A stretch of DNA of 64,000 nt. Source: an uncultured virus (IMG/VR IMGVR_UViG_3300017642_000089). Its lineage: Duplodnaviria; Heunggongvirae; Uroviricota; Caudoviricetes. The first letter of the stretch is position 1. Each line of letters starts with the position of its first letter. Positions 3,622 through 31,951 of this stretch are shown one piece after another. A program made the translations under genes and the position numbers. The notes beneath the pieces were generated by a model. The model saw nothing but the letters and a program-made list of their open reading frames with translations, searched no databases and was not told where the DNA came from. The stretch lies in the IMG/VR virus record IMGVR_UViG_3300017642_000089; one strand, given 5' to 3'.

Positions 3622-3622
3622 C

Positions 3623-10768: not shown

Positions 10769-10929
10769 CTTAATTTTGAATATCTGTATTTTTTTGCTTA
10801 AAATTACATAAGCAGCAATCGGATTGAGCAAAGAAACGCTTCAAGTTCAGTTGTCCATAAAATTGGAACTGGAGACGCAACAAAGAATAATGCCACGCAA
10901 TTGCTTACATGGCATTATCCAACAAGGCG

Positions 10930-11292: not shown

Positions 11293-12741
11293 GACAAAAC
11301 TCCTTGTTGGATTTGTACTAATAAATATCTGTAGGTCACTGTTGAATCGACAATAAGAAAAACAAGGAAAACTACTTGAAAATGCGCAGTTTTTACTCAA
11401 AAATCGCAGAAAACCGCGCAAATATGCATGAAAATCATGGTCCTACACCTGTTGAAACCGTTGATTGGCCCTAGGCTGCGATTTCCGGGGCTTTGGGGGG
11501 TGTCCGGGACCCAAACCATGGGGTCGGGTCCGAAAATCCAGGAGAGGGGAGATTTGGGGGCCTGTTTTGGGGCTGATCCGGTGACCAACAGGACCGAGGG
11601 ATGGGAGCGAGCAAAACGACGCCACGCCGTTCGATTCTCCGCATCCCCTGGCAATCTGAAACAAAAAGAAGCTCATCCACATCAATGGACAAGCTTCGCT
11701 AGCATTTTGGCCTATCTTGAGTACCAACATGACATTGATACTCAAGATAGCCCCAAGATCGAATGGACTATCGCTAATCCAAGCTTCTTGTTACTTCTGG
11801 ACGTTCGGTTTTCCCGAATCCAGCTGTATGAGATGATGCAGCGCTAGAATAAACTGAAAATTTGAAAGGTATTTTTAAATTTATACACTTTTTGTTGCTC
11901 AAACTTTTAAGTCTTGATTTGTTACAATCTTATCGAATAGCATTTTTATGTTTACTGCATCATCTCATGGTTCCTTACGAACCGCTGCCACCCATAGATA
12001 CAAAGCTTCCTTGGCTTTGGCGTACAAATGGGCTTCCCGTGGTCAAATCGGTATCCTTGTTTTCAATATCCCGCGCATAATCGCTTCAATGTGCTATAAT
12101 GATTTCTCATTAAATTTCGAACGGCCATGGTTCTCATCCTGCACATTGGCCACCACTGCTTCATCTCCTTTGAGATTACGGGCTACTGAATCGTCTCAAC
12201 CACTCCTCCGTCTCGATTGCTCGATAACGGGTTGGTTCATCTCATGGATTCTGATTCAAAAGGAAGTGATCATCTTCTTTTATCATGAGACTCTTTGTTT
12301 TTTGACTTTTTTGCTCTGTGAAAGAGCTTGGATACCGATGCTTCACGGCTCCCATGACCAACTTTATTTGCTATGCAAAAGATTGTTGTCAATACTTACT
12401 TGTTTGAACAAAGTGTATAATTTTTAATATCTATCAAAGAATGATGATAACACAGAACTTTTTAGAGTCGTTTGTTTATAGAGACGGAGTGGTGTCGTGT
12501 TGAAAAATGAGATGGTGGTGGAGTGGAGTGCAGTGAAGAGCAGGGTTGGATTGGTAAATTTCAAAAGGATATGTTCTTATTGGCTTCGGTCGTCCTTATG
12601 CTTGAATTAGAGTGTTTTGACAAATCGAAACAAATTTTTACAGATATAATTCTCTCATTGCAAGTTTTCTTGCATTTATTTTGTCATGACGGTGCGGTAG
12701 TCATGAATACCAATCTGTCGCCTCCATAGGGTCTATGGAGC

Positions 12742-17547: not shown

Positions 17548-17937
17548 TTAATCGTCCTCGGGCAGCATAAGTGTCAGAACAGGCTCCCCCTGATCACCAG
17601 GACCGATGTGCGCGATGACATCCACCGTCTCCGTCCGCCCTGGTTCCATAAGGAACGCGATCCTGACGGTGGCTCGATCCGCACCAGGGTGGCTCTTTTT
17701 TGCTGAGCAGAGCACCAGAAACAGCAGATCGTGGAGGCGGCCAGACGTACTTTGCCCTTCACCGGTCAACCCATCCGGCGGTTCGACGTACCCGTGGTAG
17801 AGGTGCTCGGAGACGGCGGTATGGACCTTGAACCCGACAGCCCTGGCCGCGTCGGTGATGTCGATGAGCACGCCGTCAGCGATGGCCTGTGCTCGGGTGT
17901 AGCTGTAGATCAGATTCCAATCGTTATCAGTGGTCAT
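17548..17937 (-). CDS. DUF6573-like hypothetical protein
   Basis: IYSYTRAQAIADGVLIDIT and GPGDQGEPVLTLMLPED motifs; AAGGA RBS. Confidence 0.75.
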   Translation of the reverse strand: MTTDNDWNLIYSYTRAQAIADGVLIDITDAARAVGFKVHTAVSEHLYHGYVEPPDGLTGEGQSTSGRLHDLLFLVLCSAKKSHPGADRATVRIAFLMEPGRTETVDVIAHIGPGDQGEPVLTLMLPEDD

Positions 17938-18491: not shown

Positions 18492-18692
18492 GATACCCTG
18501 GGCCTGGGGCCAGGTCACGGTGGAGATGGAGAAATTGGACGCGTCGCCATGAAAAACGGACATTGGCCCGGAGCGGGGTTTCCCTGAGCGTTGGGATCAA
18601 GGGTGAGCCAATGGGGGAGGCCCAGGGGAAAGGTCCAGGAGCAGGCCGTAGGACGCGAATCCAAGGCCTGTCCGGGGTGGGAGCACAACCCC
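18492..18692 (+). repeat. Direct repeat family, copy A (~200 bp, close to copy B)
   Basis: AAACGGACATTGGCCC...CCAAT...CCAGGA...CGCGAATCCAAGGCCTGTCCGGG. Confidence 0.9.
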
Positions 18693-19163
18693 CAAATCCC
18701 CCCAAGGGGGGCTGGGACTATTTCCTGAGAGAAAGCAACGAATTTTTAGTCAGTTCTGCGGTACATGGCGCTGCACCTTATGATGTTCAGTAGGTGGAGC
18801 AGGAAATAGGTCGGTTTTGAGTGCAACAACGCTGCCGGTGTCGTTAGAAGTTTTTCTTTGTAATCTCGCTAAAATGCATCATTTTTATAAAAACGATCCT
18901 AAAATGCTGTACCGGAGGGCAGCCTCCAGCCATTTTCAGGTGTGTATTGTTTTCGCCTAAGCCAGTGAAGGCGTATCTGAGACGCGTGAGGGTTCGGCTG
19001 TCACGATGAAACGCCACATTATATTAAGGAATTCGATTTATTCGAGAGACAAAGATGTCTTTTGCCGTTTTCCCTTCATAACAAGGACCGGACATTAAGT
19101 TTATTGGCAATGAGAACCAAACTCCACACCCCCAAGTAAAAATTTAAATATAAAGTTAGGAAG

Positions 19164-20999
19164 TTAGTATTTCAACCTCAAATCGCACTCATGCTTACAG
19201 GATGATTCAGTTGCTCTAATGATGCGATCCCTATCAACAAATTCTTTTGCTTTTCCCTGAGCATAATTTACAGCCATTCCAAAGCAATCTGAGTAGCATT
19301 GTTCGAGGGCCTTTTGCCGAGGTGTTTTTTGAGCTTCTTGAATCGTTTGTTTTTTTCTCCTTTCATCTGCTCTTTTTTCCTCTTTCGCTAAATTCGTAGT
19401 CACAGCAGATTGAAGCTTGTTTTCCATTTTATTGCTATAATCTTCTGTGAAACCATGAAAAGCATAAAGTGTTTCATCGCTAGCCCAGATGCAAGGGTCT
19501 AAATCCTGGCTCCATACCCCTCCACTAAGTGAGGCGGTAATTTCTGTTTCATCATCTCCGATAACTTCTTTCAATGTCACATATTTATATTTATCTTTAT
19601 TGTATCTTTTGTCGCGCTCGTCATAAAAATAACATTTATCTCGAAAAAGTTTATGAAATTTTATTGTACAGCTATTTGTCTTTAGTCCAGTGGCGCAATA
19701 TACATTATCTCCATCCGAGTCAGTATATGATTTTTCGTAAATGAATTTGCCTTTAATCGCTTGGTCTTGTCCGTAACTTTTAAAATGACTCCCTTCTGTT
19801 GGATGTGGATACTTAGTCATAGAAAATATTAAGCATGTTAAGTTTATTAATTTTTCTTCTTTTGACTTTGTATCAACTCGAAGTATCTTCGCAACGATAT
19901 AATCATTCACCTGGAGTCTGGTGAGAAAATCCATGAGATCGCTAGCGTTTGCTATATCCATTTGTGCTGGATGAGTTTTGTTAGAAGCATTTATAACTAG
20001 ATCGCCGCGTTGAAAACCAGCTGTTGCAGCTGGGCTATTTGGCGTTACATCAGTGACCCTGGCTCCCTTTAAAGATGGAAGTTCAAATTTAAAGTCTGCC
20101 ATTCGTATTCCCATTAAAGGTTTGTCTGGATGTTCTGGCGTTTGAAAAATTGTCACAATCGATCGGACTTCATTTGTAGTATGTCTTTCTTTGTCTGGTC
20201 TGATTGATATTATTTCAACTGAATCTCCAAAGTGCATGTCGTTACAAAACGAATGAGCTTGAAATCCATTTGAAATAGTAGCGACCTTATTTTGTGTTTT
20301 ATTTATTACTTTGATTATTAAGTCGTCAATTTGCAAACCAGCCTTCGCAGCTGGGGTATTCGGTGTTATCTCGACAATCCGTGCAGCTTCTTTGGGGAGT
20401 GATACTTTTGGTGGAAAGTCTGTTACTTGGATGCCAAGGATTGGCTTGTCAGTAGTATTGTCTTTTGTGTTGAGCGACGGATGTTCTGAATTTTTATTTA
20501 AATTCACAACTTCTTTGGGTGACGAATTTTGTGTGCTAGGCTGTTTATCTTGCACTTGTGAACCAGTGGCAATGTTTGTTTCAGGCTTATAAATGTAATC
20601 TCCATCAACAGAACCATTGAACCCAAACGAGCAAGAAGAGTAATTCCCCGATAGCTTCACATTGGCTGTTTTATTTGACAATCTAATGGTTAAGCGACAA
20701 TTTCTATTATTACTACTTGTTACCTCTATTGATCCATTTTTAACTATCCCATCTCCTTCGAATTCGCTAATAGCTGATCTTCCTGTTTCTTTGTCGAAAA
20801 TTATAATGTTCTGTATCGTTACATGGCAAGCTCCATTTCCAGTGTCACGGACAATGAGACTTCCACTTCGCCCATCTGTTTCCATAACAAAAGAGAAGTT
20901 TGGCTGAGCACAATAACCGGTTGCCCGTATTAATAACACAAATAAAATAAAAAATCCCAGCAAAACTGCCTTTGATGCAATATTCATCACCCTCTCCAT
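19164..20999 (-). CDS. Exported protein with two PDZ domains
   Basis: N-terminal hydrophobic segment; two PILGI/PLMGI...TPNTPAAKAGLQIDD / TPNSPAATAGFQRGD repeats. Confidence 0.85.
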   Translation of the reverse strand: MERVMNIASKAVLLGFFILFVLLIRATGYCAQPNFSFVMETDGRSGSLIVRDTGNGACHVTIQNIIIFDKETGRSAISEFEGDGIVKNGSIEVTSSNNRNCRLTIRLSNKTANVKLSGNYSSCSFGFNGSVDGDYIYKPETNIATGSQVQDKQPSTQNSSPKEVVNLNKNSEHPSLNTKDNTTDKPILGIQVTDFPPKVSLPKEAARIVEITPNTPAAKAGLQIDDLIIKVINKTQNKVATISNGFQAHSFCNDMHFGDSVEIISIRPDKERHTTNEVRSIVTIFQTPEHPDKPLMGIRMADFKFELPSLKGARVTDVTPNSPAATAGFQRGDLVINASNKTHPAQMDIANASDLMDFLTRLQVNDYIVAKILRVDTKSKEEKLINLTCLIFSMTKYPHPTEGSHFKSYGQDQAIKGKFIYEKSYTDSDGDNVYCATGLKTNSCTIKFHKLFRDKCYFYDERDKRYNKDKYKYVTLKEVIGDDETEITASLSGGVWSQDLDPCIWASDETLYAFHGFTEDYSNKMENKLQSAVTTNLAKEEKRADERRKKQTIQEAQKTPRQKALEQCYSDCFGMAVNYAQGKAKEFVDRDRIIRATESSCKHECDLRLKY

Positions 21000-21045
21000 G
21001 TTTGGTTTCGTGATGCTATGATGTGGTGAATAAAGATGGCCACAA

Positions 21046-23148
21046 CTAGTTACTCCCTTCGATCAATTGTAACGCCATCTTCGGCATTGAATTGGCTTGA
21101 GACAGCATAGCGACGGATGCTTGTGTAAGTATCTGTTCTCGAACAAACGTTGTCATTTCTTGCGCAATATCCGTGTCTGAAATTTGCGATTCGGCGGCCT
21201 GGAGGTTTTCTGCTTGGATTTGTAAATTTGATATCGTATTCTCGAGCCGATTTTGTGTCGCTCCGAGATTTGCCCTGATTTTGTCTTTTTTAACGATGGC
21301 AGATGAAATTTGATCTAACTGGTCTTGGGCTCTCGTTTGCGTTCTGATATCTAAGAATGAATTAAATACTCTCATAGAAATACCATAACCAGAGGAGTCG
21401 CCAGAAGAATTGTCATTATTATAAGCTATCGCAAAATTACCATTATTCAAAACAGTTATAGATGGGTTTGATTGATCGCCATTAGTCTCTGTATTTACCA
21501 TGAACTCCTTCCCTAAGAATTTCCCTGAATAGTCTATTACTTGAGCGGCCGTTGTCCAACCAGACCGTCCATCAAATCCTCCAGAATTATATGCCACTAC
21601 AAAAGCACCATTGCCAAGGTCAGCAATCACTGGCATATGTTGATCATTGTTCGAAAAAGTATTAACTTTAAATTCATCTTTATACACAGAGCCGTCTTGG
21701 TTGTAAATTTTGGCATAAACACCCCATGAACTTGAATCTTCCTGTTTGTATGATGACCAAGCTGCTACATACTTTCCATCTGATAATGATTGAACGGTTG
21801 ACCAATTTTGTGTATCTGCCGTATAAGTGTTTACTAAAAAATTATTACCGATCTTGTTTCCATTTTCATCAAATTCCTGTCCATATATTCCATAGTCACT
21901 TGGGTCAAGACCACCCCCGCCACTTGAAAAAGTCACTAATATGTGGCCATTTGTTAGTTTTGTAGCTGATGGTATGATGTTTGATGCGTTAGCATAGTCA
22001 CTAACGACTATTTCGTTGGTAGATGCTGTTCCATCATTGTTGAACAATCTAAGAATAATGTTTGAGCCACTCCCTCCTTGTTGATCAGATGACCAAACAG
22101 CCGCAAATTTATTGTTATCCAATGACATCAATGGATTACCGTCATTTGAAATTGATGTCTGCTGATCATGCAAAGTGGTACTATTTAATTTGAACTCTGA
22201 GCCAATTTTAGATCCATTCTGATCAATGATCTGTCCGTATACGCCTAAACCGGAACCATCTTGGCCTTGCGAAGCCCAGGTCACTAAAGCATTGCCATTC
22301 TCTAAAGTTGTCGTTTTTGGTTCTGTTTGATCGCTTAAGTTGTATGTATTTACTTGGAATTCTCCACCAATTTTTTTCCCGTTTGAGTCTAATACTTGTC
22401 CGTAGACTGACCATCCAGATTTGTTTTGATTTTCTGATTGCCATGTTGCTAGCACATTACCATTAGGCAACGAAGTTATTGATGCATATTGTTGGTTTCC
22501 GCTTGTATATGAATTAACTTGAGTGCTTTCGGAATTCCCTTCATATAAATTAATAGCATTCGCCGTGACGTCCCCGACTAAGTTTGCATTACTAAAAAGT
22601 GATGTAAGCTTTGTGCTATCAATAGATACGTAATAATAATCTTCTGCTGAATCATTTCCTGTTCCAAAATGAATTTTCGCTTTTCCTGTCGAATTTATTC
22701 CAGAACCATTAAACGACCCACTTAAATTTCCATTTAATAGATATATGCCATTAAAATCAGTTGCGTTCGATATTCTCTCAATTTCTAAAGCCATTGACTG
22801 ATATTCTGAATTTATTATTGACCTCTGATCATCCGTATATGTCCCTGTCGCTGCCTGCTCGGCCAATTCCTTCATCCGAATCAATTTTTCATCGACGACT
22901 TGCAACGCACCGTCAGCAGTTTGAATCATCGAGATGGCATCATTCGCGTTTCTGATTCCCTGGTTCATGGTGGCGATATCGGAGCGCATCAACTCCCGGA
23001 CTGCGAGGCCGGCAGCATCGTCGGCGGAGGAATTGATCCGCAAGCCGGACGACAACCGCTGCGTCGAGGTGCTCATCGCCCCGTAGTGGTTCGACAAGTT
23101 TCTGGCGGTGTTCAGCGCCATCAGGTTGTGGTTGATGACCAATGCCAT
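21046..23148 (-). CDS. fliC: Flagellin with a large seven-repeat insertion in the variable region
   Basis: MALVINHN..RLSSGLRINSSADDAAGL N-terminus; RANLGATQNRLE..AAESQISDTD..MLSQAN C-terminus; AAGGAG RBS. Confidence 0.93.
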   Translation of the reverse strand: MALVINHNLMALNTARNLSNHYGAMSTSTQRLSSGLRINSSADDAAGLAVRELMRSDIATMNQGIRNANDAISMIQTADGALQVVDEKLIRMKELAEQAATGTYTDDQRSIINSEYQSMALEIERISNATDFNGIYLLNGNLSGSFNGSGINSTGKAKIHFGTGNDSAEDYYYVSIDSTKLTSLFSNANLVGDVTANAINLYEGNSESTQVNSYTSGNQQYASITSLPNGNVLATWQSENQNKSGWSVYGQVLDSNGKKIGGEFQVNTYNLSDQTEPKTTTLENGNALVTWASQGQDGSGLGVYGQIIDQNGSKIGSEFKLNSTTLHDQQTSISNDGNPLMSLDNNKFAAVWSSDQQGGSGSNIILRLFNNDGTASTNEIVVSDYANASNIIPSATKLTNGHILVTFSSGGGGLDPSDYGIYGQEFDENGNKIGNNFLVNTYTADTQNWSTVQSLSDGKYVAAWSSYKQEDSSSWGVYAKIYNQDGSVYKDEFKVNTFSNNDQHMPVIADLGNGAFVVAYNSGGFDGRSGWTTAAQVIDYSGKFLGKEFMVNTETNGDQSNPSITVLNNGNFAIAYNNDNSSGDSSGYGISMRVFNSFLDIRTQTRAQDQLDQISSAIVKKDKIRANLGATQNRLENTISNLQIQAENLQAAESQISDTDIAQEMTTFVREQILTQASVAMLSQANSMPKMALQLIEGSN

Positions 23149-23290
23149 GGCACGGCATCTCCTTCCCTGTCTCGTATCCGGTTTCCCGTGATTTCCCGGA
23201 ATTCTTTGCCGGCGGCCCGGCTCCTGACCCGCCAGAAACCCAGTCATCAGGGGATAATTTACCAAAACATAAAGTTTACTTGTTAATATC

Positions 23291-23308
23291 TAGCAAATTG
23301 CATACCTA
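23291..23308 (-). promoter_or_regulatory. Sigma54 (-24/-12) promoter candidate for the flagellin gene
   Basis: Minus strand taGGtatgcaatttGCta = GG-N10-GC, ~145 bp upstream of the ATG. Confidence 0.6.
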
Positions 23309-23363
23309 GTTTGCTTATAGAGGAAGTCCGCTTTCCCTAGACTGTCCGAAAAGGACGGTCGTC

Positions 23364-23690
23364 ATGGGCGAGATTCTTAAGATTTTTGGAAAACGTCTCC
23401 GGTCGCTGCGCCGGGCCAAGGACATGACCCAGGAGCAGGTTGCCGAACGCGCAGGGCTGTCCCTCCAAAGCGTCGGCGAGATCGAACGGGGCAGGGGGAA
23501 TCCGACCTTGGTGAACGTCGAACGTCTTTCTGATGCTCTCGACGTCGAACTGACGGAGCTTTTCGACCTCGGTGACGTCAAGATGACGAGGGAACAGGCG
23601 GTGCAGGAGATATTGGCCCGGCTGGAAGGTGCGACCGAAGAGCAGGTCCGAGCGCTCCTGATGATGGTCAGGGTTTTGGTCCAGAAATGA
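23364..23690 (+). CDS. XRE-family HTH regulator
   Basis: FGKRLRSLRRAKDMTQEQVAERAGLS..IERGRGNPTL. Confidence 0.9.
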   Translation: MGEILKIFGKRLRSLRRAKDMTQEQVAERAGLSLQSVGEIERGRGNPTLVNVERLSDALDVELTELFDLGDVKMTREQAVQEILARLEGATEEQVRALLMMVRVLVQK

Positions 23691-23763
23691 CGGAAATATG
23701 GCGCTGCCAGTTTAAGCACGAGGAATTTACCTCTAATCCCCGGAAACACAGAGTTAGAAGAAG

Positions 23764-23968
23764 GGTACCCTCGGCGCTGGGGCCAGGTCACGGGGGAGGC
23801 GGAGAAATTGGACACGCCGCCACGGAAAACGGACATTGGCCCGGAGCGGGGTTCTCCTGCGAGTTGGGATCAAGGGGGGAGCCAATGGGGGAGGCCCAGG
23901 GGAAAGGTCCAGGAGGGGCAGGAGGGCGCGAAATACAGGGGTGTCCGGGGCGGGAGTACAAACACCCC
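23764..23968 (+). repeat. Direct repeat family, copy B
   Basis: Aligns with 18492-18692 over its whole length. Confidence 0.9.
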
Positions 23969-24208
23969 CCGGGCTTGGAGACCACCCCGTTTTCAGGGTG
24001 GTAGCGCCATGACGGAAGCACATGGGAAACTGCCTTAGAAGAGGCCTAGAGCGTGAGTTTCACAAGGATGACCGCGGGCGATAGCGCAGAGCAACGGCCG
24101 GAGCCGGTGCCGCAGGCGGCGGCTTGCTGACGACGATTCCAGGAAGGGAAAGGACCGCCTCTCCCTCCCTGGTGTTGAACCTGCTAAACGGTTCGGCCGG
24201 TTGGGCGC

Positions 24209-25516
24209 TTAACGCAACCGCGCCGGGAAGCCGACCTCTTTGATCTCCTGGGCCATATACGCGTCCAAGGTGGCCGCATCCCGTTTGCCTACGAACCACT
24301 GATGCCAATACCACGTCCGTTCCAAGGTGAGGATGATGGTTTCTCTCATGTACGGAGAAAAGGCTTTCGGATAACGCTTCTCTATATCACAAAAGATACG
24401 CCTAAGCCGACCATTCAGGTTCGTCGGACTCGTCGCCTTCGCAAGTTCACCGGTGAGGTCGTACTGATCGATGATCATTGCAAAGAACTTATCTAATTGC
24501 AGGTTGCTATATACATTTAATGGACTCAAAGACGCGGAATTCTCAAGCCGTGTCTTGGCGCGTCGACGCTCTATTTCTGACATAATCATCTGCACATGAT
24601 TTTCATCAATAGTAACGCCACGCAATACATCTTCTGGGGCATCCAATAGTGAAGGATAAATCCTAAACTCTCCGCCGTTGAAACTAAATAAAGGCACGTC
24701 GGCATTCATCCTCACTGTATGCACAGGATTTATTGAATCATACGACATCTGAATTGTCGACACGCCAGAAATATAGCCACCAAAAAGCTTCTCGAGGAAA
24801 GATATGCAGAACCTGTCTGTCTTCGCATACACACCAAGATAGTGCATCCGAAAACTATCATCAACAACCAATTCTTGCAGCTTACGATTAAGGATGTAAA
24901 AGCTTATCCCCATAAATGGGACAAACTTTACTCTTGTTGCTTCTCTTATACCAACAAGTCCACCGATCGCATGGTTTTTAACAAATCTACACATTTCAAG
25001 CCGCTCATAAATGGCTTTCCATATAGCAAACTGCTCAGGAATTTTAAAGTGCCAAACATAATAAAATTTATCACGAAGAGACTCATTACATTCAAGGACA
25101 TGACGTGATTCAGATATAGATTTAATATTGGCCTCTAGCACATTTCCGACTGTATTGAATGACTCATACTTCATACTAAAAGGAATGTCCAAAGAAAAAA
25201 CATAATCATATTCTGTGATTTCACTTTCAAGATAAACATTGTAGCAATCAATCATCATTGGTAAATTTCCTGGCGAAATATCACCTTTTATGAAAGAATA
25301 GCCACCAGAATCTGTTACTATCTTTCCATTTACAGGCGTGATAAAGCGCTTGGAAAATTCTCTGATATCATATGTTATATTTTCAATGGTATGTAGTCCA
25401 AAGTCTTTCTGCCTGAGCCCGCCAATTAGCGAGTACAGGGCAAACTGCGTTTGCTGCGTTATCGCTCGATCCATTGCGTCATCGGAGCCACCGCCTGCTA
25501 CATAAACATATTGCAT
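24209..25516 (-). CDS. TGT/DpdA-fold (guanine transglycosylase-like) protein
   Basis: Ordered motifs DSGGYS, SLD, VWH, IGGL, HYLG, YDS; GAGGAGG RBS. Confidence 0.7.
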   Translation of the reverse strand: MQYVYVAGGGSDDAMDRAITQQTQFALYSLIGGLRQKDFGLHTIENITYDIREFSKRFITPVNGKIVTDSGGYSFIKGDISPGNLPMMIDCYNVYLESEITEYDYVFSLDIPFSMKYESFNTVGNVLEANIKSISESRHVLECNESLRDKFYYVWHFKIPEQFAIWKAIYERLEMCRFVKNHAIGGLVGIREATRVKFVPFMGISFYILNRKLQELVVDDSFRMHYLGVYAKTDRFCISFLEKLFGGYISGVSTIQMSYDSINPVHTVRMNADVPLFSFNGGEFRIYPSLLDAPEDVLRGVTIDENHVQMIMSEIERRRAKTRLENSASLSPLNVYSNLQLDKFFAMIIDQYDLTGELAKATSPTNLNGRLRRIFCDIEKRYPKAFSPYMRETIILTLERTWYWHQWFVGKRDAATLDAYMAQEIKEVGFPARLR

Positions 25517-25573
25517 ATTACCTCCTCATTGTGGGGAGGAGAGGCTGATCCTCCCCTCCCGGTTTTACATGCG

Positions 25574-26365
25574 TTAAACGCGTCCTTCGTACAGACATTC
25601 CCAAGTGGTGAGATTATTGATCAAGCTCGGCTTAGAGGAGGTCTTCAGCCAGTAGCCAGCAGCATTGCGGTAAATGCCGAGTGACAACTCCAGCCCCCCG
25701 GCCAACGCCAGGAAATTTTGGCTGGTCAAAACCAAGTCTGGACTGCGTCCCTTCAGACAAGGCGCAGAATTCTTGTGGAGGGTGTAGGGATGCTTGCCAC
25801 GCACCGAGATCTGTTCAAGCTGCCCCTCGTAGCAGCACAAGACGACAAACCCGGCTTTCGCAACATACGAACTGAGGGCAGAGCGGTCGTCAATCTTCAC
25901 TTCCTCGCCGAGCCGGTTATCGCCCGTCGGCAACTGAGCCGCTGAGTGGATGACACCGGGTGCCGGCTGGAAGAGACGCCCCTTAGTGTGCTCATCGCTA
26001 AAAACAAGTTCGCTGCCTTCACCGTAAACGGTGATCAGATCTGTCCCTGTAAAGGCAGGCAGTTGACGAAGGTCCCGCTCGGTCGCCTGGATGCTGAAGC
26101 TGACACCTTGAGTGTCAACAATATTGTCTGTAGCCGAAGGATTATTTTTGTCAGTTGGCGGCGTGAGAAGAATGCCCAGATCGATATCCGCCCAAAAAAA
26201 TTCATGGCCGAGTTGTTGGGTGATTCGTGAATTTTCAATGTGAATTGGCCGTGGTCCGTGGAGCTGGACCATTTGGCGGGCCAGCCGTACGAAGGCCTTG
26301 TACCGGGCCGGTTTAAGGATGCAGAGGGGTGGTTCCTGAGACGAGTTGTCGTTGACTGGTTCCAT
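25574..26365 (-). CDS. Hypothetical protein
   Basis: AGGAG RBS; lies between the primase and the TGT-like gene. Confidence 0.65.
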   Translation of the reverse strand: MEPVNDNSSQEPPLCILKPARYKAFVRLARQMVQLHGPRPIHIENSRITQQLGHEFFWADIDLGILLTPPTDKNNPSATDNIVDTQGVSFSIQATERDLRQLPAFTGTDLITVYGEGSELVFSDEHTKGRLFQPAPGVIHSAAQLPTGDNRLGEEVKIDDRSALSSYVAKAGFVVLCCYEGQLEQISVRGKHPYTLHKNSAPCLKGRSPDLVLTSQNFLALAGGLELSLGIYRNAAGYWLKTSSKPSLINNLTTWECLYEGRV

Positions 26366-26425
26366 ATTTTCTCCTGACGGTAGAGGAATTGGCGGAGGCC
26401 CCGGTTGGAGCCCCCGCACAGTTGA

Positions 26426-27886
26426 TTAGCTGGCTAAATTCAGCACTAAGCCCTTCCAAAAGCGGGTCGATCCTGCACGATCCTGCCGAACTCCCCGGGA
26501 GCGAAGAAGGTCGCCAAGCTGGTGCTTGCCAAGAGGCTTCAGGCCTGAATCCCGCGCCCACGCGCAGTAGTCGTCGAAAAGGTGCTTCACCGGCGTTTTC
26601 CCGGCGGGATCTTCGACTGTGCGTTCGGCGAGGTATGTCCCAATGTGGTCGTTGACCTGGAAGTACTCCTCAGTCGCCTTAAGGACGGCTTCGGGCGGGT
26701 TCAGACCCTGCTCCCGCCATTCCTTGAAGCCGCGCACCATCCAGTCGAAAACCCCTTCTTTTTCGGCCATGATTTGGCGTTCGATCTCTTCTTTGCGTTT
26801 TTTTCCGTCAAAGCTGCCATTAAATGGCACGACCTGGAGGCGGCGTCGTATAGCGCGGTCACTTCCGACAAGGCCAGGAAGGTGGTTCACCGCCATAATT
26901 ATCGTCGCTTGTGGCTTGAACTGCACCGGATTTTCACCGATAGCGCGTCCAGATGTTTCATCTCCTCCAGTAAGCGTCTTCACCACTGCTTCATTCAACG
27001 TGCTTCCCCGGTTGACCTCAATAGCCAAGGCCACACGCTTGCCTTCCAGCTGGCGATGTTCATAGGGGAGGCCGTAGGTACTTGAATTCAAGATAGAATC
27101 TGGACTTAACGTGTGCGAGTATTCTCCAGAACCCAAGATATCGCGAATGGTGCCGAGATAAATGCTCTTTCCATTCGCGCCTGCCCCGTAGAGGATCGGC
27201 AGGACCTCTTCCTGAGTGGAGCCACTCAGGCAGTAGCCGCACAGGCGTTGGAGATACGCGGCCAATTCCTTGTCACCAACGGTTATATCTTCAATAAAAT
27301 CTTTCCAGAATGCACACGGCGCATCCGGAACCCACGAAACAGGTGCCAGCTTTGTCACCAATTGCGACGGATCGTGCTGCGTCAAAGTCTTGGATTCGAG
27401 ATTGAACAGCCCATTAAGGAGGTTGATCTCGTACGGATTCGCGTCGAACTCTTTTGATACCGCATGAATACGGGAATCGAGGCGTGCCAGCTTCAGGGTC
27501 TGCTGGACCATGCCAAGCGTGCGAACCTGCGCCTGAAACTGAAGCAGAGCCTTCAGTTCGACCTGAACCCCATACTCGTTCACGTGCAGCATCCCCGGCA
27601 CATATTCGAGATGGATATTCTTCAGGACATCAAGGGCGAGCCCTTCGGCAAGATGTGGGAAGTTGCCGTAGCGTCGGCCGTCATGCACCCAAAGCTTTTG
27701 CCGGTCAGTCAAAAACCGCATCTTCTGATAATGCTCGTCCAGGACACGGTCTCGAGCTCCAACTGGGTCAAGGTTTTTTAATTTAATTTTGCATGGTCTT
27801 GTATTTTCCTTTTCGCCAATATTAAGGCTATCATCTGCAATTTTCGATTTTTCATCAGGAGCAGCAGCGTTTTCTTTTTTACTCAT
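26426..27886 (-). CDS. P4-family/D5-like primase-helicase (D5_N + SF3 helicase)
   Basis: NLLNG, LYGAGANGKS, VKTLTGGD, FKPQ, NHLP, AIRRRLQVVPF. Confidence 0.9.
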   Translation of the reverse strand: MSKKENAAAPDEKSKIADDSLNIGEKENTRPCKIKLKNLDPVGARDRVLDEHYQKMRFLTDRQKLWVHDGRRYGNFPHLAEGLALDVLKNIHLEYVPGMLHVNEYGVQVELKALLQFQAQVRTLGMVQQTLKLARLDSRIHAVSKEFDANPYEINLLNGLFNLESKTLTQHDPSQLVTKLAPVSWVPDAPCAFWKDFIEDITVGDKELAAYLQRLCGYCLSGSTQEEVLPILYGAGANGKSIYLGTIRDILGSGEYSHTLSPDSILNSSTYGLPYEHRQLEGKRVALAIEVNRGSTLNEAVVKTLTGGDETSGRAIGENPVQFKPQATIIMAVNHLPGLVGSDRAIRRRLQVVPFNGSFDGKKRKEEIERQIMAEKEGVFDWMVRGFKEWREQGLNPPEAVLKATEEYFQVNDHIGTYLAERTVEDPAGKTPVKHLFDDYCAWARDSGLKPLGKHQLGDLLRSRGVRQDRAGSTRFWKGLVLNLAS

Positions 27887-27916
27887 AATGCCCTCACACG
27901 GTTTTGGTTTGGGAAT

Positions 27917-27944
27917 AAAAAAAGGCCACCCCTGAAGGTGGCCT
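27917..27944 (-). terminator. Intrinsic terminator/attenuator upstream of the primase
   Basis: AGGCCACC/GGTGGCCT stem with T-tract on the minus strand. Confidence 0.6.
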
Positions 27945-27968
27945 GCCATTTTCAAAATTGTATTAGTA

Positions 27969-28319
27969 TCAGTGTTTGTCGTACCGTGGCTGCATCAGCC
28001 TCACCTTCGGCACGCGGCGTGGATCTGGTTTGCCGGCCCGGTCGTAGCCGGAAACGCTGATGGACAGATCGTTTCCGACATGCGCGGCGAGCTGGCGTAC
28101 TGCTGGGTTGGCATGGCCCTTGGCGAGTTCCTCGAGCTTGCGCTGGAAAGTCGCCAGCCGCATAGCAGTGAACGGCGCTTCGGCCAGAAAAGGAAGTCCA
28201 GCGTCCCAATAGGCCTGAAGCACCTGGGTCGGAATAAGCCGCCCTTGCTCCCAACTCGTCCTTTGCGATTCCGTGATTCCCAACGTTCGATCACGAAAAA
28301 GATCATTAAAAAGTCGCAT
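27969..28319 (-). CDS. Hypothetical protein
   Basis: AAGGAG RBS; first gene of the primase module. Confidence 0.6.
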   Translation of the reverse strand: MRLFNDLFRDRTLGITESQRTSWEQGRLIPTQVLQAYWDAGLPFLAEAPFTAMRLATFQRKLEELAKGHANPAVRQLAAHVGNDLSISVSGYDRAGKPDPRRVPKVRLMQPRYDKH

Positions 28320-28839
28320 CTCTGCTGCTCCTTTTTCCCCGTTGGTCCGAAGGTTTCCAGGGTGATTGTATGGACCACGCCGGCGAGCGGCATGGTGATG
28401 TTTTTTGATCGCGCTGCTTGGGGGCGTACCTCCTTCGTTGGGTGTCGGGATGGCGCGATAACCGCGCTGCCCACGACTTCTTGATACGGGGACAAGGCCT
28501 CGATGGGTAATTTGTTTGTTTGATTTTTTTTAGAAATTATAATTTTATTATCGCACAAATATTTTTTGAGCCTTATCGCCCCAAGGACATGGACGAACCA
28601 GGACAACGGCCCTACAAAACGAACGAGATTCGGTTTCCGATCAGCCGGCCGTGCCCCGGGTTCATCTGATAGACCAAGAAGTCAGGGGTGCCCGGGAACT
28701 CTGGGACTAGAGGTAGACGATTGGCGGGCATTGCCGTGGAATTTGGAGGTAACACTTTGCCGCTAATTGTCCGCAGCAAATATTTCTTGTAATATGGTCA
28801 GAGCATGCCAGAAAGTTAAATTAATTTGTGATCATTTTT

Positions 28840-29910
28840 ATGAGCCAGAAAAATAAATACCTACTTCGGAATATAGTTGCAGATCTCCTGGCTGCTTATG
28901 AGGATTTTTCTACACATGAATTGTCTACACATGATTATGATAGTTTTATTTTAAATCTAGAAAAGTCATTTAAATCATATTTTTCTAATGTAGCTTTTAA
29001 GAAATATCAGACATATCCTAAAGACGATCAGCTAAATAGATCTTATCATATAGCTAGTTTTTCAATTTATGACGACGACAGTTCGGAAACGCAATCACTA
29101 TCGAAAAATTTTACAATTACTTATATTAATTTAAAAAGCGCTTTGTCCTTGATCGCTAGTTTAAAAAAATGCATAGCGAATGGATACTGCAATCTTATTT
29201 TCGTTTCAGAAAGAAATATTTTTAAAAGAACTACTTTCGCCATCAACAATAAGGAAACACCAGAAACCGACGCAACTTCCATGACCTTTAAAATAACTCC
29301 GCACCTTAGCGCGCAATCCGAAATTGTTGACTCTTTTTATATTGATTTAATGACATCCGGAGCTGTTGATGCTTTTGAGGATTACTCTATAGCCACTGAC
29401 TTTTCCTCAGATTCTTGGGAATTTTTTACTGATTTTGTTCGATCTGCGCTGATAAATTACCATATCGCTTACGATGACTTCAGTTTAATCCATATCTGCA
29501 AAGCCTGTGGAAAAATTTTTCTTCCTCAAAAATCAGGTGAGCAACGCGGTATTTTTTGTTCTATAGAATGCAAGAACTTGTTATACAAAACAAACAACAA
29601 AGTCCTAACAAACTGCATTCAAAATCAAAAAAACAGAATCAATACCATGGCCACATCATGCAGTAGCAAGGAATCAGATGGTTTAATTTCAAAGATAACC
29701 CTACCCTCAATCGAAGACTGCAGGAATTGCCCTTCGATTAGATCTTTAGAACAAGAACGTAGTGTAAAAGCAGGGAATTGTCCTGTTTTGCTGAATGATA
29801 AATGTTTTACTCTACTAACTGAGGCATATTTAAAATACAAAGAGTTAAAAAAGCTTAAGAAAAAGAAACACAAAAATGGAGATGATGAAGAATATCAATT
29901 GTTGCTCTAG
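28840..29910 (+). CDS. Low-GC hypothetical protein with CGNR-like zinc finger
   Basis: CKACGKIF..FCSIECK plus a further CxxC; basic C-terminus. Confidence 0.7.
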   Translation: MSQKNKYLLRNIVADLLAAYEDFSTHELSTHDYDSFILNLEKSFKSYFSNVAFKKYQTYPKDDQLNRSYHIASFSIYDDDSSETQSLSKNFTITYINLKSALSLIASLKKCIANGYCNLIFVSERNIFKRTTFAINNKETPETDATSMTFKITPHLSAQSEIVDSFYIDLMTSGAVDAFEDYSIATDFSSDSWEFFTDFVRSALINYHIAYDDFSLIHICKACGKIFLPQKSGEQRGIFCSIECKNLLYKTNNKVLTNCIQNQKNRINTMATSCSSKESDGLISKITLPSIEDCRNCPSIRSLEQERSVKAGNCPVLLNDKCFTLLTEAYLKYKELKKLKKKKHKNGDDEEYQLLL

Positions 29911-29929
29911 AAAATGAACCCACCCAAGA

Positions 29930-30062
29930 ACACGTACTTTCCTCAATTGCTCCCCACCCATCCCTGGGCTGGGGGCTGACTGTCCCGGGCATCCTCGGTG
30001 AGTGGGATGGGAACCCCCAGGAAGGGGGCTACCGAGCGAATCCAGGGGGTGTCCGGGCTGGC
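29930..30062 (+). repeat. Direct repeat family, copy C (5' part degenerate)
   Basis: CCCCAGGAAGGGGGCTACCGAGCGAATCCAGGGGGTGTCCGGGC. Confidence 0.75.
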
Positions 30063-30229
30063 GGACGGGGGGAGGCCCAGAGAGACCAACGGAACCGGGT
30101 AGAAATCGATCCCCTGTAACTCAATAGGCCTATGGCTGCGGCATTTCCTTGATCAAGCTCGGACTTTGACGGCGGCGGCGAGAAACGGAGCGGTGGTTTT
30201 CACTTGGGATTTCGTAGCGCCCATACTTG

Positions 30230-30596
30230 AAATGTCACCTTTGTCACCTGTGAAAAATCCATTTTAATTCATCATGTTGTCTGACAATGGTCGGCGTACG
30301 GGGTGACATTTGGTCCGCTGGATCGACACGGGCCAGGATCAGGACAGACCAATCAGCCCCGGTAAAAATCCAACCCATTTTGGCTCCATAGGCCAATTCC
30401 TGCATCTTTTCCTGCATCAGGGTTCGTCTTTGATGCCGGCGGTAGTACCGGGGCAGCGGTTTACATCTTGGTTGCTGCCCTCAAGCACCACACCTGGGGA
30501 AAAGGGCCAGCAGCAAATGTCACAAATGTCACTGTGAAATTTATTCCAAGATTACCAATGGATAGATCGATATTTGGAGCGGAGGCAGTGACATTT
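30230..30596. repeat. Two 82-bp iteron-like blocks (30230-30311, 30515-30596)
   Basis: Each reads AAATGTCAC..TGTCAC..TGTGAAA-AT rich-GTGACATTT. Confidence 0.7.
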
Positions 30597-30610
30597 TATC
30601 ACCATCCCAG

Positions 30611-30740
30611 AAATCTGACATTGCCCCTAGGGGGGCCACCCTGGAGCGGGACCAGGCCCGGGGAACCAATCCTCCAGGCCCAGAGGAACGGCCCAGGAAA
30701 GCCCCCTACCGCGCGAATCCAGGGGGTGTCCGGGCCGGCG
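30611..30740 (+). repeat. Direct repeat family, copy D
   Basis: AAATCTGACATTGCCC...CCAAT...CCCAGGA...CGCGAATCCAGGGGGTGTCCGGGCC. Confidence 0.85.
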
Positions 30741-30788
30741 GCTGGGGGAGAGGACCGGGACAGTCTCAAAATGATTTATCCAGGCTAA

Positions 30789-31211
30789 TCATTTCTTGGT
30801 GCCTTTAATACTTTTAAGTCCGAGTACGGATATTAACTCATTTTTTTCATCGCGCGCAGATACATCCTCAAAAGTTACCTTTCCTTTCTTTGCACCGTTC
30901 CAGTGAACGAGAAGATGATCCTTAATCGCGTACAAAATTTGCAAATAATTTGGATAATTAGTGTCCTTGATGGATTCGTGATATATTGAATATATGGCCC
31001 CAGTCCGCACGGGAGAGACACTTCCCTCGGATGAATCACTTAGCCTTGCAATATGGGCATTTATCTCCTCTAACAATACTTCAACATTATAAGCAAAATG
31101 CCATTTATCTCCATTGAAAATCATCATTGTCAGAATACTCAATAGCCAATTGTTAAAAGCCATATCTTTCCTGAGGCCCTCAATTGTTTCCTGATCTGAT
31201 AAATTTTTCAT
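30789..31211 (-). CDS. Low-GC hypothetical protein between repeat copies D and E
   Basis: 140-aa ORF with GAGGA RBS. Confidence 0.65.
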   Translation of the reverse strand: MKNLSDQETIEGLRKDMAFNNWLLSILTMMIFNGDKWHFAYNVEVLLEEINAHIARLSDSSEGSVSPVRTGAIYSIYHESIKDTNYPNYLQILYAIKDHLLVHWNGAKKGKVTFEDVSARDEKNELISVLGLKSIKGTKK

Positions 31212-31291
31212 TTTACATCCTCATAAAATTTTAGTGTTGCATGTTAAGAGGCGTATGCTATGTGCTGATAGCATAGGTACTACGCACGATC

Positions 31292-31420
31292 AAAACGTAC
31301 ATTGGCCCATATCGCGCTCCTCCTGGAAGAGGGACGGGCCGGGGAGACCAATCCCCTCTCCCAGGGAAAAGCCCCAGGAAGGGGCCCTACCACGCGAATC
31401 CAGGGGGTGTCCGGGCCGCC
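31292..31420 (+). repeat. Direct repeat family, copy E
   Basis: AAAACGTACATTGGCCC...CCAAT...CCCCAGGA...CGCGAATCCAGGGGGTGTCCGGGCC. Confidence 0.85.
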
Positions 31421-31794
31421 GGCCAGGGGAGGGAGGTCGGGGCTGGCCCAGGAAACCAGCGGGGCCGGGTAAATCCTCGTCGCCATGGCGTTCACTCGGG
31501 CTGTTCCTGCGTCAACACCGCCGCCACCGTTTGACTTGAAGGACCGTGATATGCGGTCTCAGGAGCATTTGCCCCTGGGACCAAACTTTCTTCGGAGGAT
31601 GCACCCGAAAAGTCCAAATGTCCAAAAGAGGGGGGGGGCGCTTGAAAATCCCACAAGCGACCGTGGTTTCATTTCTTGTACAACTATGCGTAAAATAATG
31701 GAAATATGTTGACAGGAGCGAAAGAGACGGAGGGGTGGGGGTGACCTCTTGAAAATATTCAAGCGATCCCGGAATAATTTCTTGGTCTCACGAG

Positions 31795-31951
31795 TGGACC
31801 GGGGAGGCGATCAATTTGGCACTAGGAAAGGGAAGGGACAAACGGCCGTGAAGGTCCGCGACATCTAGGTTTGCGGACGGAAACAGGGCCTAAGACGATT
31901 TGGCACTGATTGCTTGAAAATGGAAAAAAATTGCGCGGATTTTGGCACTGA
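31795..31951 (+). repeat. Prophage left end with three TTTGGCACT transposase-binding-like repeats
   Basis: TTTGGCACT at ~31815, 31899 and 31941; candidate terminal TG at 31795. Confidence 0.6.

What the first reader, a model, noticed from the sequence alone, without database searches (positions are those of the whole stretch)
18492..31420. Same-orientation repeats carrying a recombinase arm delimit cargo blocks: candidate cassette-shuffling system
Seen: five direct copies (A 18492, B 23764, C 29930, D 30611, E 31292) plus core remnants near 11495 and 28682. A, B, D and E begin with AAA(C/T)-CG(G/T)ACATTGG-like sequence, matching the right arm (AATCGTACATTGG) of the lox-like site at 10756-10768. 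They then carry CCAAT, CCAGGA and a core of consensus CGCGAATCCAGGGGGTGTCCGGG. The arm C to core CGCG distance is exactly 97 bp in all four (18557-18654, 23830-23927, 30615-30712, 31296-31393), and A and B reach it through compensating indels. Copy E keeps the GTAC-N16-GTAC geometry of the 10735 site. The copies bracket self-contained blocks: PDZ+flagellin+XRE, the primase/TGT module with a Zn-finger gene, iteron blocks, and one AT-rich gene. Inference: these are core-plus-accessory recombination sites of the small tyrosine recombinase that capture or excise modules, integron-like in logic but not attC-like in sequence.
Basis: partly seen in the sequence, partly recalled or inferred. Interest (0 to 1): 0.85.

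Follow-up and report, generated by a model that had tools for sequence, protein, structure and literature searches.

The report
Recombinase-linked repeats bounding island gene blocks
About 145-base repeats that carry a recombinase half-site mark the joints between gene blocks in a family of genomic islands of sulfate-reducing bacteria, and they look like the sites of a cassette system different from integrons, though no recombination has yet been shown.

Summary
Five strong co-oriented copies lie at 18547, 23820, 29924, 30608 and 31290, with a weak sixth at 11452. All sit in a low-GC island that a Mu-like prophage has split.

Each unit has three parts:
- a 14-nt head, identical at 11-13 of 14 positions in A, B, D and E to the right arm of an inverted-repeat site beside a 185-aa tyrosine recombinase;
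- a spacer of fixed length;
- an invariant core, GGTGTCC.

The family is confined to islands of Desulfovibrionaceae that carry a conserved module: IntDes-type integrase, 185-aa recombinase, inverted-repeat site, HTH protein and a unit. These islands sit at tRNA-Ala.

On contigs that hold the recombinase, 47 of 49 units lie on the strand opposite to it. Four paralogous islands share the same flanks but hold 1, 2, 4 and 4 units, with 0, 1, 3 and 3 different gene blocks. The breakpoints lie at the core.

My best reading (0.45) is that the units are site-specific recombination sites that add and remove gene blocks. The logic is integron-like, but the enzyme and the sites are not. Binding and catalysis are inferred only. 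The rivals are homologous-recombination linkers, relics of tandem island accretion, and regulatory regions.

The parts
8731..10011 (-). Large tyrosine recombinase (426-aa ORF), IntDes-like. It overlaps the hsdM start.
   Evidence: Pfam Phage_integrase. The motif YDLRH stands where HxLRH is usual (translation), as PMC8138268 section 14 describes for IntDes. Found next to the small recombinase in 10 of 12 modules.
10041..10598 (-). 185-aa tyrosine recombinase made of the catalytic domain only.
   Evidence: Pfam, NCBIfam and PHROGs match the catalytic domain only. By my reading the catalytic residues R, K, HxxR, H and Y are all present. The family has 388 proteins, and nearly all of the 120 listed are 184-186 aa. 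Homologues align from residue 17-19 of the 203-aa ORF.
10611..10624 (-). Half-site just upstream of the recombinase RBS.
   Evidence: 2 mismatches. The same position is occupied in other modules, by my reading.
10735..10768 (.). lox/dif-like inverted repeat, CCAATGTACG-N14-CGTACATTGG.
   Evidence: An inverted repeat at this position is present in 12 of 12 modules, and both arms change together in the GCCGC lineage.
10888..10917 (.). Second inverted repeat, after the HTH gene. It may be a terminator or a binding site.
   Evidence: In other modules its arms read AAATGTCA/TGACATTT, the same motif as the iterons.
10930..11292 (-). About 120-aa module protein ('p163'): an HTH-like N-terminal part and a beta-rich C-terminal part.
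   Evidence: Conserved in 12 of 12 modules. Alignment. The structure model has low confidence, pLDDT 55. No Pfam hit above the cut-off.
11452..11575 (+). F-type unit, next to the module and divergent from it.
   Evidence: The same arrangement recurs 750-900 bp from the recombinase start in other modules.
17548..17937 (-). DUF6573 gene, divergent from unit A.
   Evidence: Pfam. The pair 'DUF6573 gene then unit' recurs in G002, G004 and G043.
18492..18686 (+). Unit A. Upstream extension 18492-18546, head 18553-18566, core 18654-18677.
23764..23966 (+). Unit B. Head 23826-23839, core 23927-23949.
28684..28696 (+). Core-only remnant, AGGGGTGCCCGGG.
29924..30084 (+). Unit C, with a degenerate head. 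Core 30036-30057, followed by the palindrome GTCCG-N6-CGGAC.
30100..30605 (+). 'Iteron' block with TGTCAC / GTGACATTTGG half-site-like motifs.
   Evidence: Homologous to the two tandem blocks of about 290 nt at the island end in S. aerotolerans.
30608..30760 (+). Unit D. Head 30611-30624, core 30713-30734.
30789..31211 (-). 140-aa low-GC gene, the single-gene block between D and E.
   Evidence: No family hit.
31290..31476 (+). Unit E with its extension. Head 31292-31305, core 31394-31415.
31590..31806 (+). Conserved terminal region of the island. In relatives it lies next to tRNA-Ala.
   Evidence: 84% identical to S. aerotolerans C140; reading.
31807..31950 (+). Left end of the Mu-like prophage that splits the island terminus. 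TTTGGCACT occurs three times, at 31815, 31899 and 31941.
   Evidence: Repressor and MuA genes. A contig of run X7 continues after 31797 with sequence that resembles the tRNA-proximal sequence of S. aerotolerans. The tRNA lies about 2.2 kb beyond the window end, in G001.

Best explanation
The repeats are bipartite recombination sites ('units', about 145 bp) of a family of genomic islands in Desulfovibrionaceae.

The islands integrate at tRNA-Ala(GGC). They carry a conserved module: an IntDes-type integrase, a 185-aa catalytic-domain-only tyrosine recombinase, a lox/dif-like inverted-repeat site, a small HTH protein and one unit.

Each unit has three parts. The first is a recombinase half-site (the head). 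The second is a spacer of fixed length, rich in CCWGG and holding a small hairpin, which presumably binds accessory protein. The third is an invariant core, GGTGTCC.

I propose that strand exchange between two co-oriented units happens at the core. It would excise the block between them as a circle, and the reverse reaction would insert such a circle. That would build arrays of blocks and fuse or trim tandem islands.

Shown here: the anatomy of the sites, the co-occurrence, the orientation rule, the array polymorphism and the positions of the breakpoints. Inferred: protein binding, catalysis, which of the two recombinases acts, and whether the system is still active.
For: 1. Half-site. The head motif has exact matches only at the right arm of the inverted repeat and at A, B and E, with 11-13 of 14 identities in A, B, D, E and F.

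2. Inverted repeat. 12 of 12 modules have one between the recombinase and the HTH gene. In the L059/L060/L082 lineage both arms changed to GCCGC/GCGGC, and the head of the adjacent unit reads AAAGCGGCTTTGG.

3. Co-occurrence.
- S. aerotolerans (G002) has 19 unit hits and 9 recombinase paralogues, largely on the same contigs.
- Of 151 genomes sampled from the family, 15 have units, 22 have the recombinase and 10 have both. Fisher p = 1e-6.

4. Orientation. 47 of 49 units on recombinase-bearing contigs lie on the strand opposite the recombinase, or 33 of 35 when the module-adjacent units are left out. This is my own tally over.

5. Arrays. The same flanks (DUF6573 gene on one side, p163-like gene on the other) hold different contents:
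- 1 unit and 0 blocks in G002 C104;
- 2 units and 1 block in G002 C90;
- 4 units and 3 blocks in G002 C53;
- 4 units and 3 other blocks in G004 C88.
The C53 insertion runs from just after the core of unit r1 (9547) to just after the core of r3 (11969). r3 has a different unit subtype, so the partners share only about 7-9 identical bases at the joint. The C88 breakpoint also falls in the core region.

6. Ends of homology. 55 of 177 right-hand ends of pairwise homology fall 0-19 nt after the core, and 41 of 169 left-hand ends fall at -140 to -121. The sequences after the cores of A, B and D have no homologue in any locus I fetched.

7. Geometry. The distance from unit start to core end is 124-126 nt in 24 of 28 A/G-type copies despite internal indels. 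It is 97 bp exactly in A, B, D and E.

8. Mosaic. Window 24225-27451 matches the module that follows the F unit in a second island of G154. That is what fusion of two islands at unit B would produce.
Against: - No excision joint, circle or empty site was seen for any window block. The unit-to-unit joints in contigs have short sides and can come from other copies or other organisms.
- Left arms next to the heads are not conserved, so a head is a lone half-site.
- The core shows no clear dyad except in copy C, and its binding arms are not identified.
- In G137 the only recombinase found has GCCGC-type arms, yet the two units at tRNA-Ala have other heads. The type-3 island there has no unit beyond the adjacent one.
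- 5 of 15 unit-bearing genomes gave no recombinase at E <= 1e-40. Four of those five are weak unit hits.
- The A-to-B flagellin block is syntenic in S. aerotolerans C53, so at least this block is scaffold and not a recent capture.
- Homologous islands share synteny, which alone explains part of the orientation rule. Phylogeny was not controlled in the co-occurrence test.
- The one relative of the 140-aa gene has no unit beside it.
Confidence: 0.45

Rival explanations
1. The units are conserved linker or boundary sequences between island modules. Blocks are exchanged, gained and lost by ordinary homologous recombination between these repeats of 130-400 bp. The recombinase half-site is unrelated to block exchange and might serve, for example, in autoregulation or in resolving dimers of a replicating excised island.
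For: - Units are 70-90% alike over 130-400 bp inside a genome, which is enough for RecA.
- G-type units carry conserved extensions, and further clusters of homology ends lie at +120 and +340.
- Island scaffolds are syntenic.
- The islands carry replication genes: DUF927/Cch-like helicase, D5 primase, Replicase and Prim-Pol. A Cre/lox-like resolution role for the inverted repeat is therefore plausible.
Against: - The C53 joint links units of different subtype that share only about 7-9 identical bases at the breakpoint.
- The most invariant stretch of the unit coincides with the commonest end of homology.
- The head-to-core spacing is fixed in 24 of 28 copies, which recombination by homology would not select.
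- Heads match the recombinase arm.
Confidence: 0.2
2. The units are cis-regulatory regions (promoter/operator or 5' leader) of island genes. They are bound by the HTH proteins or by the recombinase acting as a repressor, and were duplicated together with their genes.
For: - In G-type arrays most blocks start with a gene co-oriented with the unit and 70-450 nt downstream of it.
- The extension holds a conserved palindrome, by my reading.
- Units sit in divergent intergenic regions beside DUF6573 and p163-like genes.
- A small hairpin around CCAGGAA keeps its pairing through changes on both sides: GCCCC/GGGGC, GGCCC/GGGCC and CCCCC/GGGGG.
- One G-type copy folds with z = -4.5.
Against: - In the window the next genes after A, B and D are on the opposite strand.
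- No Rfam family matches and there is no consensus RNA structure.
- A-E fold no better than shuffles, z = -1.9 to +0.26.
- Sigma-70-like sites are not enriched: 33 found, 36 expected.
- Regulation does not explain the array polymorphism or the strict co-orientation.
Confidence: 0.15
3. The copies are relics of repeated tandem integration of whole islands at tRNA-Ala. Each island ends with a unit, and later deletions removed the att copies and the integrase modules and left only the units.
For: - An A-type unit lies 0.45-1 kb from tRNA-Ala in G002, G137, G098 and G154, and units lie near that locus in G043 and G082.
- Partial copies of the tRNA 3' half (45-51 nt) mark tandem islands in G154, G098 and G082.
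- L105 shows an island end followed by another integrase module.
- The window's B-to-E part resembles the right half of a second island.
Against: - There is no partial tRNA copy anywhere in the window.
- Single-gene blocks between units (window D-E; G002 C53; G004 C88) are far smaller than islands.
- G-type arrays lie inside islands, away from the tRNA end, and the fetched part of that contig holds no partial tRNA copy.
- The deletions this model needs would themselves have to end at units.
Confidence: 0.12

Closest known systems
Integrons (IntI, attI, attC cassette arrays)
   Same: Arrays of co-oriented, mostly single-gene blocks, each ending in a site of about 60-150 bp. The sites are conserved within a lineage while the cargo varies. 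A tyrosine recombinase gene is divergent from the array, with a special site near it.
   Different: - The recombinases are not IntI: 65 and 23 bits against a cut-off of 265.
- The units are not attC-like hairpins.
- There are two recombinases plus an HTH protein.
- One genome holds many islands.
- Arrays lie on both sides of the module.
- The platform is itself a mobile tRNA island.
Xer sites with accessory sequences (cer, psi) and pdif modules
   Same: A short core plus about 100-180 bp of accessory DNA on one side at a fixed geometry, favouring recombination between direct repeats. In pdif modules, gene modules are bounded by recombinase sites. This comparison is recalled, not tested here.
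   Different: - The recombinase is encoded by the island and is not XerC/D: 44-48 bits against cut-offs above 329.
- All sites are in direct orientation.
- The accessory part carries its own recombinase half-site.
- The accessory proteins are unknown.
Cre/loxP-type simple tyrosine-recombinase sites
   Same: The site at 10735-10768 has 10-bp perfect inverted arms around a central region, right beside the recombinase gene.
   Different: The 185-aa protein lacks the N-terminal core-binding domain. The same arm recurs as lone half-sites at the unit heads and in the 5' UTR of the gene.
Tandem accretion of tRNA-integrating islands (ICE/CIME-type composite islands)
   Same: The islands sit at tRNA-Ala, with a direct repeat of the tRNA 3' half, and they stack in tandem.
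   Different: The internal units are not tRNA-derived. They bound blocks as small as 0.7 kb, and no att copy accompanies them.
IntDes subgroup of tyrosine recombinases (Smyshlyaev et al. 2021, PMC8138268)
   Same: The 426-aa integrase shows the H-to-Y change (YDLRH) and the Desulfovibrio-group distribution described there.
   Different: That paper states that the function is unknown. Here the gene sits in a defined island module. Membership was judged from one motif only.

Membership tests
Integron | IntI-type integrase (model TIGR02249 / NF011946 above its cut-off) | tested here: not met
   The 426-aa protein scores 65.4 bits and the 185-aa protein 23.3 bits, against a cut-off of 265.
Integron | attC sites: imperfect palindromes that fold as single strands | tested here: not met
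   A-E fold with z = -1.9 to +0.26 on either strand. RNAalifold gives -7 kcal/mol with weak pairs, or no structure at all. The attC end consensus is recalled and was not scanned for.
Integron | Co-oriented array of cassettes whose content varies between related platforms | tested here: met
   0, 1, 3 and 3 blocks between identical flanks. Orientation tally 47 of 49.
Simple tyrosine-recombinase core site (lox/dif type), for 10735-10768 | Two inverted arms around a short central region, next to the recombinase gene | tested here: met
   found in 12 of 12 modules, and both arms covary in one lineage.
Simple tyrosine-recombinase core site, for the units | Two inverted arms flanking the crossover region | tested here: inconclusive
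   The head is a lone half-site. The core shows a dyad only in copy C (GTCCG-N6-CGGAC), by my reading.
tRNA-integrating genomic island | Island beside a tRNA gene, with a direct repeat of the tRNA 3' part at the far end | tested here: met
   for relatives G154, G098 and G082. In the window both island ends lie outside. The tRNA is in G001, about 2.2 kb past the window end.
att repeats of tandem islands, as an explanation of A-E | A tRNA-derived att sequence beside each copy | tested here: not met
   no partial tRNA match in the window.
IntDes tyrosine recombinases | First His of the RKHRH pentad replaced by Tyr; shifted first Arg | tested here: inconclusive
   YDLRH is read in the translation. 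The shift of the first Arg was not tested. The definition comes from a passage of PMC8138268.
MITE | Terminal inverted repeats and scattered insertion in either orientation | tested here: not met
   No inverted arms at the unit ends. 47 of 49 units are co-oriented.
Known RNA family (Rfam 15) | A match at the gathering score | tested here: not met
   the only hit in the window is Hammerhead_II at 38482-38547.

The most novel reading that the evidence does not exclude
Desulfovibrionaceae carry a second kind of gene-cassette system that is independent of integrons. A catalytic-domain-only 185-aa tyrosine recombinase, perhaps working with the so far function-less IntDes integrase and a small HTH protein, uses bipartite sites of about 145 bp (arm half-site, spacer of fixed length, invariant crossover core). 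With them it inserts, excises and shuffles gene blocks inside mobile tRNA-Ala islands. The blocks carry flagellins, c-di-GMP enzymes, chemoreceptors and replication modules.
Probability: 0.35. Interest if true: 0.88.

Novelty: new variant of a known kind. Interest (0 to 1): 0.72.

Why it matters
If the units are active sites, this would be a cassette-capture platform built from parts unrelated to IntI and attC. It would give a function to the IntDes integrases, which the one paper describing them leaves without one. It would also give a function to a large, uniform family of 185-aa recombinases now annotated only generically as XerC, XerD or integrase.

It would explain how high-GC sulfate reducers assemble low-GC arrays of sensory, motility and defence genes.

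The system can be tested directly in a cultured strain, Solidesulfovibrio aerotolerans DSM 16695, which carries at least 9 modules.

If the units prove to be only homology linkers or regulatory regions, the finding reduces to a well-defined new family of tRNA-Ala islands.

Tried and rejected
- Own genome and earlier findings: neither was available.
- IMG/VR scan for the core: 0 hits.
- Rfam: nothing on the units.
- RNA or single-strand structure: no consensus and weak z-scores. I rejected a structured RNA or an attC-like fold as the main reading.
- Sigma-70 and terminator scan: counts at chance level. By my own reading there is no sigma-54 spacing.
- Coding potential of the units: rejected, because indels between copies break every frame (alignments).
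- One genome-contig hit, in a Paracoccaceae genome, lies in unrelated sequence and I dropped it as chance.
- PADLOC: no cassette protein matches a known defence family. Only the cargo to the left of the integrase does: PD-Lambda-3_B-like and GmrSD/Orf5-like, beside the type I R-M genes that Pfam names.
- Structure of the HTH protein: pLDDT 55, too poor for a fold search.
- Mobility of the 140-aa block: a match in 1 of 401 genomes, with no units beside it. Uninformative.
- Specificity test in G137: the type-3 island has only its adjacent unit. Uninformative.
- Sequencing runs: no RNA holder is listed.
- Contig joints: 18455/18468 to 23761, 23858 to 31360, 23878 back to 18614, 30760 to 31601 and 31415 to 31597. 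All have sides of 24-39 letters or letters in between, at 90% likeness. They can come from other unit copies or other organisms, so I do not count them for or against excision.
- Metagenome scan: 15 loci, of which L096-L098 are the same organism (99.93% identical) and show no rearrangement.
- Similarity of the core to the tRNA T-arm: 11 of 19 positions in one hand alignment, judged not significant.
- Papers: PMC2853133 (passages) concerns other Desulfovibrio R-M islands and is not relevant. Searches turned up no description of these repeats or islands. No supplements were consulted.


Full report
**Setting.** The window has a backbone of about 68% GC and a mosaic of 30-58% GC from 1 to about 31.8 kb.
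- Pfam names a type I R-M system with GmrSD- and Ymh-type genes at 1-8.7 kb.
- A 426-aa tyrosine recombinase follows at 8731-10011 (-).
- A small recombinase lies at 10041-10652 (-). Homologues show that its real start is at 10598, which gives 185 aa.
- Then comes low-GC cargo: DUF927/Cch-like helicase, radical SAM, DUF6573, PDZ protein, flagellin and D5-type primase.
- From about 31.8 kb to the window end lies a Mu-like prophage, with a cI/S24 repressor at 31978-32769 and MuA at 33645-35756.
- The window's own assembly is not held. The nearest record, G001, equals window 45589-64000 and runs 2.3 kb further.

The five copies, the weak sixth copy at 11452 and the core remnants are confirmed. 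So are the head motif, the exact 97-bp spacing with compensating indels in A and B, and the GTAC-N16-GTAC geometry of E. The units are GC-rich (0.64-0.71) and the cargo between them is AT-rich (0.33-0.41). Of the block contents, PDZ, flagellin, primase, the iterons and the AT-rich gene are confirmed. 'XRE', 'TGT' and 'Zn finger' are not.

**The repeats belong to a wider family tied to a gene module.**
- The 20-nt core occurs in Solidesulfovibrio aerotolerans DSM 16695, Desulfovibrio sp. DV and a Thermodesulfobacteriota MAG. A sixth hit, in a Paracoccaceae genome, is chance.
- A sequence-only model finds 19, 10 and 1 copies in these three genomes. That is an undercount, since only 150 candidates per genome were scored.
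- The 185-aa recombinase has 9 paralogues in S. aerotolerans and 2 close ones, plus one weak match, in strain DV, largely on the unit-bearing contigs.
- tblastn shows a conserved module: large integrase, 185-aa recombinase and a protein of about 120 aa ('p163'), followed by a divergent unit of a distinct F subtype 750-900 bp from the recombinase start.
- Every one of 12 modules has an inverted repeat between the recombinase and p163. In the L059/L060/L082 lineage both arms read GCCGC/GCGGC, and the adjacent unit head reads AAAGCGGCTTTGG. Further half-sites lie just upstream of the recombinase RBS.
- The large integrase has YDLRH where HxLRH is usual. This fits the IntDes subgroup, which the paper describes as found only in Desulfovibrio and of unknown function (PMC8138268, passage of section 14). 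The word IntDes occurs in only that paper and its preprint.
- Neither recombinase is an IntI or a Xer protein by NCBIfam cut-offs.

**Distribution.** Among 151 sampled genomes of the family, units were found in 15 and the recombinase (E <= 1e-40) in 22, with both in 10. Fisher p = 1e-6. Phylogeny was not controlled, and only 19 candidates per genome were scored. On contigs that hold a recombinase, 47 of 49 units are on the strand opposite to it, or 33 of 35 without the module-adjacent units. This is my own tally over. The two exceptions are G002 C140:109259 and G104 C41:12157.

**The islands sit at tRNA-Ala.**
- In S. aerotolerans C140 the last unit is followed by an extension, two tandem 'iteron' blocks of about 290 nt, a terminal region of about 300 nt, and then a terminator, tRNA-Ala(GGC) and an ABC permease.
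- The same tRNA-permease locus has units nearby in G043, G137, G098, G154 and G082. Copies of the tRNA 3' half, 45-51 nt long, mark the far ends or tandem islands in G154, G098 and G082.
- Window 31590-31806 is the homologue of that terminal region, 84% identical.
- The Mu-like prophage starts just after it, where TTTGGCACT occurs three times.
- The tRNA itself lies in G001, beyond the prophage.
- A contig of run X7 continues after 31797 with sequence that resembles the tRNA-proximal sequence of S. aerotolerans (my comparison). So the prophage interrupts the island end.
- No partial tRNA copy lies in the window, so A-E are not att scars.

**Genes vary while sites persist.** Four paralogous islands share the same flanks, a DUF6573 gene on the left and a p163-like gene on the right. 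Between those flanks they hold:
- 1 unit and no block (G002 C104);
- 2 units and one block (G002 C90);
- 4 units and three blocks (G002 C53);
- 4 units and three other blocks (G004 C88).

Relative to C90, the extra DNA of C53 runs from just after the core of unit r1 (9547) to just after the core of r3 (11969). r3 lacks a head and has the core subtype of the window's copies, whereas r1 has the G subtype. The two partners therefore share only about 7-9 identical bases at the joint. The C88/C90 breakpoint also lies in the core region. If the crossover were at the head, the same block would need different units in C53 and C90, so the core model is the more economical one.

Across 41 anchored units, 55 of 177 right-hand ends of homology fall 0-19 nt after the core, and 41 of 169 left-hand ends fall at -140 to -121. 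After the cores of A, B and D the window sequence has no homologue in any fetched locus. The distance from unit start to core end is 124-126 nt in 24 of 28 A/G-type copies, and 113-117 nt in the 7 F-type copies.

**Cargo.** Blocks in these arrays encode PAS, EAL/HDOD, GGDEF, response-regulator, histidine-kinase, chemoreceptor, flagellin and MucR-like proteins. None matches PADLOC.

**Limits on the cassette reading for the window itself.** The window and S. aerotolerans C53 share one scaffold: integrase, recombinase, p163, F unit, then a variable replication module, radical SAM, a variable part, DUF6573, a unit, flagellin and a unit. The A-to-B block is thus part of that scaffold, with an extra PDZ gene in the window. 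Window 24225-27451 (the 435-aa gene through the D5 primase) matches the module that follows the F unit in a second island of G154. The part from B to E therefore looks like the right half of another island joined at unit B. That agrees with unit-to-unit recombination in tandem islands, but also with other routes.

**Structure and expression.** No Rfam family matches. There is no consensus fold. A-E fold no better than shuffles, and one G-type copy reaches z = -4.5. A 3-5-bp hairpin around CCAGGAA keeps its pairing through changes on both sides. Promoter-like sites are at chance level. No RNA run is listed, so transcription is untested.

**Mechanism proposed.** An island-encoded tyrosine recombinase complex binds the head and the core of a unit across a spacer of fixed length, probably with the HTH protein or host factors on the CCWGG-rich middle. 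It exchanges strands at GGTGTCC between two co-oriented units. Intramolecular exchange removes a block as a circle that carries one unit, and the reverse reaction inserts it. The sequence relations, distribution, orientation and breakpoints are shown. Binding, catalysis, the acting enzyme and present-day activity are inferred. I put this at 0.45. The rivals are homology linkers (0.20), regulatory regions (0.15) and accretion relics (0.12).

**Comparison and novelty.** The logic resembles that of integrons and of Xer sites with accessory sequences, but the defining features of both were tested and not met. My literature searches (listings and two sets of passages only) found no description of these units or islands. 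I rate the finding a new variant of a known kind, that is, site-specific recombination sites bounding gene blocks in a genomic island. It would be a new cassette platform if recombination is demonstrated.

Noticed in passing
window 38482-38547 (+): A type II hammerhead ribozyme (77.9 bits, E 1.3e-14) lies inside the Mu-like prophage, at the very start of the GemA-like ORF (38482-38982).
   Followed up: no
window 39412-40293, 48176-49810, 60992-61639; repeats 49815-49881 and 61621-61687: Three low-GC genes (31-39% GC) are inserted in the 68% GC Mu-like prophage. One is an ORC/CDC6-like AAA ATPase and two are unknown. Two of the three abut a 67-nt direct repeat that is 88% identical between its copies. 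They look like moron or defence-type inserts with their own boundary element.
   Followed up: no
window 31797-31950: The left end of the Mu-like prophage carries TTTGGCACT three times. A contig of run X7 goes on after 31797 with sequence that resembles the tRNA-proximal sequence of S. aerotolerans, so the prophage appears to be missing in a related strain.
   Followed up: partly
window 1-8734: Type I R-M genes (hsdM, hsdS) have a PD-Lambda-3_B/Ymh-like gene and a GmrSD/Orf5-like gene wedged between them. hsdM overlaps the 3' end of the IntDes-like integrase gene.
   Followed up: no
window 17548-17937; G002 C53 8722-9111 and many other loci: A DUF6573 gene (about 129 aa) sits divergently beside units in many islands, and directly after the F unit in the GCCGC-type modules. 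Its function is unknown.
   Followed up: partly
window 30230-30316, 30515-30600, 31607-31627; L007 (G002 C140): The motif AATGT(A/C)C and its TGTCAC/GTGACATTTGG variants recur in several places: the iteron blocks, the terminal region, the second inverted repeat after the p163 gene in other modules, the heads and the core. One DNA-binding specificity may decorate the whole island end.
   Followed up: partly
L052 14555-14851; L071 10016-10312; L069 13336-13635: A distant paralogue of the module HTH protein (34-37% identity) lies about 480 nt downstream of the last unit of G-type arrays and is co-oriented with it.
   Followed up: no
window 21046-23265; L053 15875-17386: Both islands carry a flagellin gene between two units. 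The N- and C-terminal domains are conserved and the middles differ. The S. aerotolerans copy has a laminin-G/lectin-like insert.
   Followed up: no
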